Positions 6,950 to 8,300 of a stretch of DNA of 64,000 nt are shown one piece after another. Both the position numbers and the translations under genes were made by a program. The notes beneath the pieces were generated by a model. That model saw nothing but the letters and a program-made list of their open reading frames with translations. It did no database searches and was not told the origin of the DNA. The stretch lies in the NCBI RefSeq assembly GCF_009914755.1, contig NC_060929.1. One strand, written 5' to 3'. How positions within the stretch are numbered: position 1 is the first letter of the stretch; every line of letters starts with the position of its first letter. The stretch is from the human T2T-CHM13v2.0 reference genome, Homo sapiens.

Positions 6950-8300
6950 ACCCCTGCCACCCTCCCGCGCTATAAATCATCAGATCACAGCCCCGCCCAA
7001 GGCCTCAGGGACCCGCCGTGGTCCCGAGAGAGGCAGCCCTGGACGAGAACAGGGCCCCTTTTCTGCCTGGTCCCCGCCCTCCCCGCGAGGTGACCCCGTC
7101 TGGACTCTGCAGCCGCGGGAACAGCGAGGTCAGAGGGCGCCCCGGGAGCTGTCGGCCCATCCCCGCGGCCCCTGCCCCGGCTCGGTGTCACCTGCAGGCC
7201 CCGGACAGGGCGGGATCCCCGCAGGGAACTGCCCCAGGTCCCCGGAGCGCGCGGCGGGCGGCAGGGGCGGGGCTCCGCTGGGCTGGGGGGACCCCAGGCA
7301 GGGACCGACCCCCGGGCTGACCGGGAGCCCCACCCCCGCCGGCCCGCCAGGCCGCCGCCGCCCACCTGCGCCCTTCGAGGGGACCGGCACCTGCGCGCAC
7401 CTACCGTAGCGGCCGGGCTCGCGGCAGTAGAGCAGAATGGGAAGCGGGTCCTCGTCAGGCGGCTCGGGCGCGGCTGCGGGGTCCAGGCCGGGGTCGGGGG
7501 CCCGGCGGGGGCTCGGGGTGGGGCGCTGGCTGCCGCCTTCCTTGGCCCCGGGCCCCGCACCCCCCGCCGCGGGGGTCACCACGAAGCGCTGGGACATGGT
7601 GTCCGCGACGGCTGCGGGGAGCGGGGACCTGAGCGCGGGGAGGGCGGGGCCGGCGGGGCGGGCGCGGGAGGCCAGGAGGAAGGGAGGGAGGCCGGGGGGA
7701 GAGAGGGACCGAGCGCACCGCCGGGGATGGGGCCGCGCGGCGCGGGGAGGGGCCGGGAGGGCGAGGCGGACTCCGGCTGACACCTCGGCAGCGGTCCCTG
7801 CCCGCGGGGGGACCACGGCCTCGGCCCCCGAAGAACGAAGAGCGGCCTCGGCTCTCGCTGCGTGACCTTGGAGACGCCCCAGCCGGGCGACCGGGTCAGC
7901 GCGCGGTGCAGAAGCCTGAGGGGAGGAACAGACCTCGCTCTGCGCCGCCTGGAACCGACGACGACCAACCCTGGCAGCAACGCTGCAGCCCGCGGTCTCT
8001 GGCGACGCCCACCGAGGGCCGGGACCAGGGGGCCGGTGAGGGTGGAGGTCTCGCTGGCCTTTGGGTCCGTGGGGAGGGGCGCCCTGATCTGGGGCCTCCA
8101 CCTCCCCCATCCCCAGACTCCAGCCCTTGGCCAAGCAGGGTTCAGCCGTGCCTGCGTGCGAGGCAGAGGCCTCCTCCTGGGACTTCCACCTGGGGAGAAA
8201 GGCCTCCGGGGCAGCCAGGGTGGAAGGCGGAGGCCAGCCTGGCTGCGGAGGCGCTGGGAGCCGCGGACCCTAGAAGTCTTGGGAGACCCCGCCTGCTCTT
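6950..8300. promoter_or_regulatory. CpG island / GC-box promoter of the minus-strand SLC12A7 distal first exon
   Basis: Very high GC and CpG density with multiple GGGCGG boxes around the exon at 7405-7597. Confidence 0.8.
7405..7597 (-). CDS. SLC12A7: Putative alternative (distal) first coding exon of K-Cl cotransporter KCC4, 64 aa + 1 nt: MSQRFVVTPAAGGAGPGAKEGGSQRPTPSPRRAPDPGLDPAAAPEPPDEDPLPILLYCREPGRY
   Basis: Kozak GACACCATG at 7597 inside a CpG island, and a phase-1 donor TACG|GTAGGT at 7405/7404. The N-terminus resembles KCC2a (MSRRFTVT) and KCC3a (SVRFMVTP). SLC12A7 is the known minus-strand neighbour of SLC6A19. Downstream exons lie outside the window, so the join is inferred. Confidence 0.72.

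What the first reader, a model, noticed from the sequence alone, without database searches (positions are those of the whole stretch)
7405..7597. Distal first exon giving KCC4 an RFxV SPAK/OSR1 docking motif (a KCC2a/KCC3a-like isoform of SLC12A7)
Seen: CpG-island ATG with Kozak context, 64 codons beginning MSQRFVVTP (RFVV at 7588-7577), and a phase-1 donor G|GTAGGT. Established: KCC2a (RFTV) and KCC3a (RFMV) come from distal alternative first exons, and RFxV/I motifs bind the CCT domain of SPAK/OSR1 in the WNK pathway. The canonical KCC4 N-terminus (MPTNFTVVPV) lacks the arginine, and as I recall its exon 1 also ends in phase 1. Inference: SLC12A7 has the same two-promoter design, producing a little-studied isoform directly scaffolded to WNK-SPAK. 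The C-terminal PILLYCREPGRY block stands out from the low-complexity linker and may be a second conserved motif. The exon may exist as a predicted RefSeq model, but I know of no functional characterisation in human.
Basis: partly seen in the sequence, partly recalled or inferred. Interest (0 to 1): 0.8.

Follow-up and report, generated by a model that had tools for sequence, protein, structure and literature searches.

The report
Conserved alternative first exon of KCC4
This is a real, deeply conserved alternative first coding exon of the potassium-chloride transporter gene SLC12A7 (KCC4); it gives the protein a kinase-docking motif that the textbook form lacks, plus a second conserved motif of unknown function, and nobody seems to have studied it.

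Summary
Window 7597-7405 (minus strand) is an ATG followed by 64 codons and one base, then a G|GTAGGT donor, inside a CpG island.

The open frame alone proves nothing, because all six frames are open here. Other evidence shows it is a coding exon:
- In this genome the exon joins SLC12A7 exon 2 in frame. Both first exons end in a phase-1 G, and exon 2 starts with GA.
- It lies 43.9 kb upstream of the canonical ATG.
- The same N-terminus heads SLC12A7 proteins of many placental orders and of teleost fish.
- In 50 aligned full-length proteins, M1, R4, F5, V7, P9 and P53, I54, L55, Y57, E60, P61, Y64 never vary, while the linker between them varies freely.
- Conservation starts at the ATG and stops at the donor.

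The RFVV-T-P motif matches validated SPAK/OSR1 docking motifs such as those of KCC3a and WNK1. Binding itself was not tested.

RefSeq already predicts the exon. Eight full-text searches found no paper on it, and a 2025 proteome-wide motif scan lists human KCC4 only for a C-terminal variant motif.

Verdict: a new member of a known kind (KCC2a/KCC3a-like), with a new second motif, PILxYxREPxxY.

The parts
7000..8250 (.). CpG island around the exon; presumed distal promoter of SLC12A7
   Evidence: GC is 0.73-0.82 and CpG observed/expected is 0.69-0.89 in 500-nt windows, against 0.04-0.5 outside. There are two CCGCCC boxes at 7661 and 7647, and no TATA or CCAAT box. Promoter activity itself was not tested.
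7405..7601 (-). Alternative first exon (exon 1a) of SLC12A7 as annotated in predicted RefSeq transcripts; the coding part is 7405-7597
   Evidence: Hub annotation, plus the translation. It is 193 coding nt, which is 64 codons plus 1 base.
7553..7597 (-). Conserved block 1, residues 1-15 (MSQRFVVTPAAGGAG), including the start codon at 7595-7597
   Evidence: M1, R4, F5, V7 and P9 are invariant in 50 of 50 aligned full-length proteins. Mean pairwise identity is 0.82 for the first 10 residues, against 0.14 for the 15 in-frame residues upstream.
7577..7588 (-). RFVV, a core R-F-x-V/I motif; the Thr-Pro that follows is at 7576-7571
   Evidence: RFx[VI] is present in 179 of 180 session proteins. Thr at +3 and Pro at +4 match the signature of validated motifs (PMC12413468 passages).
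7448..7552 (-). Variable Pro/Ala/Gly-rich linker, residues 16-50
   Evidence: The whole exon peptide is 43-70 aa in 45 unique placental sequences and 65-86 aa in 65 unique teleost sequences. Almost no linker column is conserved.
7406..7447 (-). Conserved block 2, residues 51-64 (PLPILLYCREPGRY); consensus P-I-L-x-Y-x-R-E-P-x-[RK]-Y
   Evidence: P53, I54, L55, Y57, E60, P61 and Y64 are invariant and R59 is at least 90% conserved in 50 of 50 proteins. The motif is present in 180 of 180 session proteins. Mean pairwise identity is 0.81.
7399..7405 (-). Phase-1 splice donor: the last exon base G (7405) followed by GTAGGT
   Evidence: In 22 unique ORFs that read through into the intron, the two residues over the donor stay 0.76 identical (G then mostly R, i.e. 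GGT AGG). The next 9 residues fall to 0.16.
8108..8110 (-). The only upstream ATG within about 700 nt. It is in frame, 513 nt upstream, and is probably not used.
   Evidence: The in-frame upstream translation is not conserved between species.

Best explanation
Window 7405-7597 (minus strand) is exon 1a of SLC12A7. It is an alternative first coding exon with its own CpG-island promoter, 43.9 kb upstream of the canonical start.

How the isoform is built:
- Exon 1a splices across a 62.8-kb intron to the shared exon 2. It replaces the 41 whole codons of the canonical first exon (MPTNFTVVPV...) with 64.
- The product would be about 1106 aa, as in the macaque and cattle models.
- Its cytosolic N-terminus has two short conserved motifs joined by a free-evolving linker.

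Motif 1 (R4-F5-V6-V7-T8-P9) is an R-F-x-V/I motif. The most likely mechanism is that it inserts into the C-terminal CCT domain of SPAK/OSR1. That would place the WNK-activated kinase on the transporter and favour inhibitory phosphorylation of the C-terminal threonines. Because KCCs form dimers, the kinase could act on the partner subunit as well. This is what has been shown for the minor KCC2a isoform.

Motif 2 (P-I-L-x-Y-x-R-E-P-x-[RK]-Y, ending at the splice junction) is a second docking or regulatory site whose partner is unknown.

What is shown: the sequence anatomy, the in-frame join, conservation bounded by the exon ends, and the fit to the motif.

What is inferred: use of the exon in human tissues, SPAK/OSR1 binding, and the effect on transport.
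For: Anatomy:
- ATG, 64 codons plus 1 base, G|GTAGGT donor, CpG island.

Frame, read from this genome:
- Exon 2 begins cactag|GA GAT GGA AAT at C5:998566.
- Canonical exon 1 has its ATG at C5:1017681 and ends G|GTGAGC.
- Both first exons therefore give Gly (G+GA) followed by DGNPRENSPF.

Orthologues:
- 14 proteins at E <= 10 among 595 candidates. Seven carry SLC12 Pfam domains, and six of those seven are named SLC12A7.
- (profile search): 51 proteins among 8000 scored. Every named one is a placental mammal. They include primates, cattle, horse, carnivores, bats, shrew, hedgehog, pangolin, guinea pig, mouse 'isoform CRA_a', anteater and manatee.
- 16 hits at E <= 0.001 among 1.84 billion representatives, including a fish ORF.
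- 141 hits at E <= 10 among 425 candidates, 120 listed. The named ones are teleost SLC12A7 or SLC12A7b, apart from mis-named or 'hypothetical protein' models.
- 146 of 180 session proteins run straight from block 2 into exon 2.

Selection:
- Invariant residues M1 R4 F5 V7 P9 P53 I54 L55 Y57 E60 P61 Y64 in 50 of 50 proteins.
- Identity is 0.14 upstream of M1 and 0.82 from M1 onward. It is 0.81 in block 2 and 0.16 beyond the donor.

Fit to the motif:
- Core RFxV with Thr at +3 and Pro at +4, as in KCC3a (VRFMVTP, ranked 42 in its motif class in the 2025 scan) and in the WNK1 blocking peptide SAGRRFIVSPVPE.
- Flank preferences are described.

Precedent:
- KCC2a, but not KCC2b, binds SPAK and is suppressed by it.
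- KCC2a also couples KCC2b to WNK-SPAK (PMC13694278, abstract and passages).
Against: - No human expression evidence could be examined. The RefSeq model starts only 4 nt before the ATG, so no transcription start site is defined.
- Binding was not tested.
- Position -2 is Gln. It is not among the residues the peptide arrays favour there (Gly, Ser, Thr, His, Asn).
- In teleosts position +3 is Val, not Ser or Thr.
- The protein hits were found by similarity to the query, so the counts of motif presence are partly circular. The contrast between blocks, linker and flanks is not circular.
- No birds, reptiles, amphibians, marsupials or sharks were recovered. This may reflect the word-index searches and their cap rather than true absence.
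- The full-length AlphaFold2 model failed (mean pLDDT 33.6), so nothing can be said about accessibility.
- Canonical KCC4 is reported to be phosphorylated by SPAK without this motif. That report is PMC3940040, which is marked retracted.
Confidence: 0.72

Rival explanations
1. The exon is real and coding, but the R-F-V-V motif is mainly read by another CCT-like domain (WNK CCTL1/2 or NRBP1) or serves a different role. It would then link KCC4 to the WNK complex in some way other than direct SPAK/OSR1 docking.
For: [quoted passage not shown] Gln at -2 is not optimal for OSR1.
Against: The core and the +3/+4 flank are nearly the same as in KCC3a and WNK1 motifs used as SPAK/OSR1 binders. KCC2a, with R at the same position 4, binds SPAK.
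Confidence: 0.12
2. The exon is an ancestral first exon kept by selection in many species but little or not used in human. In that case the human isoform is essentially a prediction, and canonical exon 1 carries all function.
For: - In teleosts this N-terminus heads nearly all SLC12A7 isoforms returned by the search, while in human only predicted transcripts use it (hub annotation).
- No paper mentions it.
- Human has Leu instead of Arg at position 56 and Gly instead of Ser at position 62.
Against: - Human keeps the ATG, every invariant residue, the frame, the donor and an unmethylated-type CpG island.
- Positions 56 and 62 vary in other species too.
- An ENA-derived 1108-aa protein sits on a 4.7-kb contig, which is the size of an mRNA (inference).
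Confidence: 0.13
3. This is a chance open frame in GC-rich DNA, or a non-coding first exon, wrongly extended into a coding model by prediction pipelines.
For: All six frames are open across the island, and this one is open for 379 codons. Several pipelines have produced obviously wrong models over this exon, named collagen-like, IF-2-like and zinc finger.
Against: - Conservation is confined to the stretch from the ATG to the donor.
- Twelve residues are invariant from fish to primates while the linker changes in length by whole codons.
- The join to exon 2 is in frame.
Confidence: 0.03

Closest known systems
KCC2a (SLC12A5 exon 1a isoform)
   Same: - It is an alternative first coding exon that starts M-S-R-R-F-T-V, with the RFxV Arg at residue 4.
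- It ends in a phase-1 G before GT.
- It is a minor isoform beside a major one that lacks the motif.
- It binds SPAK and couples the major isoform to WNK-SPAK.
   Different: - The exon is 40 codons, not 64.
- It has no PILxYxREPxxY block.
- It has Thr at motif position +1 (Thr6, reported as a SPAK site in the retracted PMC3940040), where KCC4 exon 1a has Val.
- The KCC4 exon has not been functionally characterised.
KCC3a (SLC12A6 exon 1a isoform)
   Same: - It is a distal alternative first exon carrying V-R-F-M-V-T-P, the same V-T-P flank as KCC4 exon 1a.
- It has a phase-1 G|GT donor.
- It is listed as an RFxV/I motif (rank 42 in its motif class) in the proteome-wide scan.
   Different: - The motif sits at residues 13-16 of the longest ORF, not at the very N-terminus.
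- The exon is longer, 81-90 codons depending on the ATG used.
- It has a second RF (RVRF) and the Ser96 region, but no block 2.
Canonical KCC4 exon 1 and KCC1 exon 1
   Same: All share an N-terminal M-x-x-x-F-x-V-x-P frame and a phase-1 G donor. Teleost KCC4 exon 1a (MGERFVVVPVDGG) looks very like KCC1 (MPHFTVVPVDGP).
   Different: - The residue before Phe is Asn in canonical KCC4 and His in KCC1, not Arg.
- KCC1's is called an 'H/RFXV OSR1-binding motif' in PMC8280820.
- BLASTP finds no significant similarity between KCC1 exon 1 and KCC4 exon 1a (E = 1.4 to 54). Common ancestry of block 2 is therefore not shown.
NKCC1 N-terminal regulatory scaffold
   Same: It is a disordered transporter N-terminus that carries an RFxV SPAK/OSR1 site next to a second docking site. 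For NKCC1 the second site binds PP1. I saw this only as the title of a cited reference.
   Different: It belongs to a different branch of the family, and its phosphorylation activates rather than inhibits. Block 2 of KCC4 does not match the RVxF rule for PP1 as I recall it.

Membership tests
Alternative first coding exon of a KCC gene (exon 1a type) | ATG-initiated open frame ending at a GT donor in phase 1 | tested here: met
   There are 193 nt from the ATG to G|GTAGGT. The other four human KCC first exons read here also end in G|GT, phase 1.
Alternative first coding exon of a KCC gene (exon 1a type) | In-frame join to the shared exon 2 | tested here: met
   Exon 2 begins with GA after the acceptor cactag, so G+GA codes for Gly and DGNPRENSPF follows. 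In one search, 146 of 180 session proteins run directly from block 2 into exon 2.
Alternative first coding exon of a KCC gene (exon 1a type) | Coding conservation limited to the exon | tested here: met
   Identity is 0.14 upstream of M1 and 0.82 within the exon start. It is 0.81 in block 2 and 0.16 in the intron. Twelve residues are invariant in 50 of 50 proteins.
Alternative first coding exon of a KCC gene (exon 1a type) | Own promoter and actual transcription and splicing in human | not testable with these tools
   The CpG island is present. No CAGE, RNA-seq or proteomics data are accessible here.
SPAK/OSR1 CCT-domain docking motif (R-F-x-V/I) | Core R-F-x-V/I | tested here: met
   RFVV is at residues 4-7. 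R4, F5 and V7 are invariant in 50 of 50 proteins.
SPAK/OSR1 CCT-domain docking motif (R-F-x-V/I) | Favourable flanks and no Pro inside the core | tested here: inconclusive
   Thr at +3 and Pro at +4 match validated motifs, and there is no Pro in the core. However, -2 is Gln rather than Gly/Ser/Thr/His/Asn. Teleosts have Val at +3.
SPAK/OSR1 CCT-domain docking motif (R-F-x-V/I) | Accessible, cytosolic and disordered location | tested here: inconclusive
   It lies at the extreme N-terminus of the cytosolic N-terminal domain, upstream of a low-complexity linker. The AlphaFold2 model was unusable (mean pLDDT 33.6).
SPAK/OSR1 CCT-domain docking motif (R-F-x-V/I) | Physical binding to the CCT domain that depends on R, F and V | not testable with these tools
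   No SPAK/OSR1 sequence could be obtained under the rules, so no complex prediction was run. A binding assay is needed.

The most novel reading that the evidence does not exclude
Exon 1a is a two-site regulatory module. RFVV recruits SPAK/OSR1. The second motif, PILxYxREPxxY, is conserved from teleosts to human (12 of its 14 codons lie within 36 nt of the splice site). It would be a previously undescribed short linear motif that docks a different partner, such as a phosphatase, a trafficking adaptor or a tyrosine kinase acting on Y57/Y64.

On this reading a low-abundance exon-1a subunit acts inside KCC dimers as the switch that makes the abundant canonical KCC4, which has neither motif, sensitive to WNK signalling. 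That would explain how a transporter without an N-terminal RFxV motif is controlled by SPAK/OSR1.
Probability: 0.3. Interest if true: 0.72.

Novelty: new member of a known kind. Interest (0 to 1): 0.6.

Why it matters
KCC4 is needed for hearing and for renal acid secretion in mice (PMC7606576 passages). It is treated as a WNK-SPAK/OSR1 substrate.

The canonical protein has no N-terminal RFxV motif. A 2025 proteome-wide scan could list human KCC4 only for an R-x-F-x-V variant in the C-terminal domain (F879). [quoted passage not shown]

An isoform with a textbook RFxV at its N-terminus, conserved from teleost fish to human, offers a simple and testable route for kinase recruitment. It would bring KCC4 into line with KCC2 and KCC3.

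It also matters in practice:
- Antibodies raised against residues 1-117 of canonical KCC4 may recognise this isoform differently, because its first 64 residues differ.
- Expression constructs and structures use the other N-terminus.
- Variant interpretation pipelines ignore these 64 codons.

The second motif is a clean target for partner discovery.

Tried and rejected
- **PDB search with the 64-aa peptide:** 0 matches at E <= 10. With the full macaque isoform, the human KCC4 chain 7d99_A aligns only from residue 63 onward. The 'KCC4a' of the structure papers therefore does not carry this N-terminus.
- **'KCC4a/KCC4b' in the literature:** these terms mean the zebrafish paralogues or the canonical human form, not this isoform.
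- **Full-length AlphaFold2 model** of the macaque isoform with a 50-row alignment: mean pLDDT 33.6 and pTM 0.22, so it is unusable. No fold search was made.
- **BLASTP of KCC1 exon 1 against fish and bat KCC4 isoforms:** nothing significant (E = 1.4 to 54). The idea that KCC1's LSWVDYGER stretch is the counterpart of block 2 stays a guess.
- **Complex prediction with the SPAK/OSR1 CCT domain:** not run, because no such sequence could be obtained.
- **Rabbit KCC4 cloning paper (Velazquez and Silva 2003):** not held. My recollection that it reports 1106 residues could not be checked, and a text search for that length found nothing.
- **Motif rules recalled from memory** for PP1 (RVxF), calcineurin (PxIxIT), dileucine, YxxPhi and WW-domain motifs: block 2 fits none of them as I recall them. 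No tool test was made.
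Full report
**What is in the sequence**

On the minus strand, an ATG at 7597-7595 (context GACACCATGT) opens 64 codons. They read MSQRFVVTPAAGGAGPGAKEGGSQRPTPSPRRAPDPGLDPAAAPEPPDEDPLPILLYCREPGRY. One further base (G, 7405) precedes GTAGGT, so the exon is 193 nt and ends in phase 1.

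The exon sits in a CpG island. Between about 7000 and 8250, GC is 0.73-0.82 and CpG observed/expected is 0.69-0.89, against 0.04-0.5 outside.

The open frame is not evidence by itself. This frame is open for 379 codons (7130-8269) and all six frames have long open stretches here. Within 700 nt upstream there is only one other ATG. It is at 8110, in frame and 513 nt away.

**Place in the gene**

The window's genome could be searched. The macaque SLC12A7 isoform X1 (P0005) matched exon by exon on contig C5. Its residues 1-65 matched C5:1061403-1061597, which is window 7403-7597.

A degenerate pattern for the canonical N-terminus quoted in the finding hit once in the genome, at C5:1017653-1017681 on the minus strand. 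Read from the DNA, canonical exon 1 is MPTNFTVVPVEAHADGGGDETAERTEAPGTPEGPEPERPSP. It ends CCG G|GTGAGC, in phase 1.

Exon 2 begins after ...ttgtttttccctcactag with GA GAT GGA AAT CCA AGA GAA AAC AGC CCA TTC, at C5:998566. Either first exon therefore gives G+GA = Gly, followed by DGNPRENSPF. The join from 7405 is in frame.

The exon-1a ATG lies 43,916 bp upstream of the canonical ATG, and the intron from exon 1a to exon 2 is 62,838 bp. These figures are my arithmetic. The hub annotation lists an exon at 7405-7601 in predicted SLC12A7 transcripts.

**Relatives**

- **First search.** The 64-residue peptide, searched against longer proteins, gave 14 hits at E <= 10 among 595 candidates. Seven carry SLC12 Pfam domains. 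Six of these are named SLC12A7 models (macaque X1, pangolin X3, cattle X1, anteater X3 and two horseshoe-bat isoforms). The seventh is an unnamed 1108-aa ENA protein on a 4.7-kb contig. The other seven are short ORFs or wrong models that read through the exon from genomic DNA.
- **Profile search.** A profile of nine N-termini gave 51 hits among 8000 scored candidates. Every named one is a placental mammal. They include horse, cats, lynx, slow loris, squirrel, guinea pig, mouse ('isoform CRA_a', 528 aa), shrew, hedgehog, desman, many bats and manatee.
- **Representative library.** The same profile, run against 1.84 billion representative proteins, gave 16 hits at E <= 0.001. All are short. One of them (P0060, E = 1.1e-6) begins MGERFVVVPVDGG and carries VLPILEYNREPNKY.
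- **Search with P0060.** Residues 1-66 of that protein returned 141 hits at E <= 10 among 425 candidates, of which 120 were listed. Apart from a few mis-named or 'hypothetical protein' models, the named ones are teleost SLC12A7 or SLC12A7b. Across many listed isoforms of each species they read M-[GAS]-[ED]-RFVVVPVDGG...VPILEYNREPNKY-GDGVPKENSPF.

No bird, reptile, amphibian, marsupial or shark sequence was returned.

**Evidence for selection as a coding exon**

The exception is an ORF that starts at an internal Met. All 180 have P[IV]LxYx[RHK]EPx[RK]Y, and 146 continue straight into exon 2. These proteins were found by similarity to the query, so the raw counts are partly circular. The pattern of conservation is not.

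I aligned 50 full-length proteins, 20 placental and 30 teleost, chosen by me from the 146 spliced ones.
- The invariant residues in the exon are M1, R4, F5, V7, P9, P53, I54, L55, Y57, E60, P61 and Y64, followed by G65, D66 and G67.
- V6 and R59 are at least 90% conserved.
- The linker between the two blocks has almost no conserved column.
- The whole exon peptide ranges from 43 to 70 residues in 45 unique placental sequences and from 65 to 86 in 65 unique teleost sequences.

Ten unique ORFs extend upstream of the ATG. In these, mean pairwise identity is 0.14 for the 15 residues before M1 and 0.82 for the first 10 residues.

Twenty-two unique ORFs read through the donor. In these, identity is 0.81 in block 2 and 0.76 for the two residues over the donor. 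Those two residues are Gly and then mostly Arg, which is GGT AGG. Identity drops to 0.16 for the next nine residues.

Conservation therefore begins at the ATG and ends at the splice site.

**The paralogues**

I read three other human first exons from the same genome, locating them with patterns taken from peptides printed in PMC3940040.
- KCC1 exon 1 is MPHFTVVPVDGPRRGDYDNLEGLSWVDYGERAELDDSD, then G|GTGAGG.
- KCC3a exon 1a contains MASVRFMVTPTKIDD and ends VIE, then G|GTAAGT.
- KCC2a exon 1a is [40 protein letters not shown], then G|GTAGAG.

All five first exons examined share an N-terminal F-x-V-x-[PS] frame and a phase-1 G. Only KCC2a, KCC3a and KCC4 exon 1a have Arg before the Phe. Block 2 was not seen in KCC2a or KCC3a. 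A weak resemblance to KCC1 is not significant by BLASTP.

**How it most likely works**

In the numbering of the 2025 binding study (Phe = 0), the human motif reads S(-3) Q(-2) R(-1) F(0) V(+1) V(+2) T(+3) P(+4). I saw passages and a supplement search of that paper, PMC12413468. It reports the following:
- Validated motifs often have Ser or Thr at +3, and Pro at +4 in 6 of 27.
- Pro within the core is disfavoured.
- Gly at -2 is favoured, with an increased preference also for Ser, Thr, His and Asn.

The flank V-T-P is the same as in KCC3a, whose motif TKMASVRfMVTPTKI ranks 42 in its motif class in the paper's table. It is also close to the WNK1 blocking peptide SAGRRFIVSPVPE.

For KCC2 the literature reports that KCC2a, but not KCC2b, binds SPAK. 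It also reports that SPAK suppresses transport by KCC2a only. A 2026 paper reports that the minor KCC2a couples KCC2b to WNK-SPAK in heteromers (PMC13694278, abstract and passages).

By analogy, I propose that the exon-1a N-terminus docks SPAK/OSR1 on KCC4 dimers and promotes inhibitory C-terminal phosphorylation. This step is inferred, not shown. R-Phi-X-V motifs can also be read by CCT-like domains of WNKs and NRBP1 (PMC12266122 passages), so the reader domain is not settled.

Exon 1a has Val where canonical KCC4 has Thr6. Thr6 was reported as a SPAK site in PMC3940040, which is marked retracted. The two first exons would therefore exchange a phospho-acceptor for a docking site.

The function of block 2 is unknown. 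I take it to be a second docking or regulatory site.

**Is it known?**

The exon is in RefSeq and Ensembl-derived predictions for many species and in the human T2T annotation (hub annotation). I found no paper that describes it.
- Full-text searches for KCC4 with RFxV or alternative first exon found nothing on it.
- The same holds for KCC4a, KCC4b and isoform terms, and for KCC2a + SPAK + KCC4 + KCC3a.
- Searches for splice variants and for alternative promoter also found nothing.
- Six peptide strings from the exon gave 0 papers.
- Searches for rabbit KCC4 and for its protein length added nothing.

These searches cover open-licence PubMed Central papers and bioRxiv only.

Reviews that I saw in passages speak of N-terminal splice variants of KCC1, KCC2 and KCC3 only (PMC4301019). 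The 2025 scan of the human UniProt set lists S12A7_HUMAN only for R-x-F-x-V at F879 in the C-terminal domain. Its authors remark that no such motif variant had been implicated for KCC4.

One lead is from recollection only. The cloned rabbit kidney KCC4 may have the length of the exon-1a isoform. The paper is not held.

**What failed**

- A full-length AlphaFold2 model was unusable.
- No complex prediction could be run.
- Human expression data are outside these tools.

**Verdict**

This is a real and deeply conserved alternative first coding exon. It makes KCC4 the third KCC gene with an RFxV-bearing N-terminal isoform, and it carries an additional motif that has not been described. Confidence that it is a genuine coding exon is about 0.9. 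Confidence that the motif docks SPAK/OSR1 is about 0.65.

Noticed in passing
G000 C5:1017681 (canonical SLC12A7 exon 1), L012, L013, L014: All five human KCC first coding exons read here end with a single G before GT (phase 1). They are KCC1, KCC2a, KCC3a, canonical KCC4 and KCC4 exon 1a. All start with an M-x-x-x-F-x-V-x-[PS] frame. This suggests one ancestral first exon that was duplicated and diverged.
   Followed up: partly
P0011, P0017, P0157, P0008 (database proteins covering the orthologous exon): Several public gene models read this exon in frame inside unrelated predictions. Their names are 'collagen alpha-1(I) chain-like' (muntjac), 'translation initiation factor IF-2-like' (otter), 'Zinc finger protein 709' (a croaker) and a 706-aa goat 'hypothetical protein'. 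They look like annotation errors caused by the long open frames of the CpG island.
   Followed up: no
window 7430-7432 (codon 56) and 7412-7414 (codon 62), minus strand: Human block 2 reads PILLYCREPGRY, where macaque-type sequences have PILRYCREPGRY and most placentals have PILRYCREPSRY. Guinea pig also has Leu at position 56. The position varies (R, L, H, N, S, E, K), so this is probably neutral.
   Followed up: partly
P0014/P0015, P0036/P0037, P0047/P0048, P0022, P0010: In several bats and a slow loris, isoform pairs differ by one extra residue (Ala or Val) exactly at the junction between exon 1a and exon 2. This is as expected from tandem acceptors at exon 2. Bovids have an extra Tyr (RYY) at the end of the exon. 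The human acceptor shows a single AG.
   Followed up: no
window 7130-8269, minus strand, and the other five frames: Every reading frame across the CpG island is open for 60 to 379 codons. ORF length is therefore useless as evidence in this region. A 326-aa public ORF (P0002) simply reads through the exon and both flanks.
   Followed up: yes
teleost proteins P0061-P0180: In the teleost SLC12A7/SLC12A7b models returned by the search, the RFVV-type N-terminus heads many listed isoforms per species (X1, X2, X4, X5 and so on). It may therefore be the main or only first exon there. I did not see a fish counterpart of the mammalian canonical exon 1, but I did not search for one.
   Followed up: no
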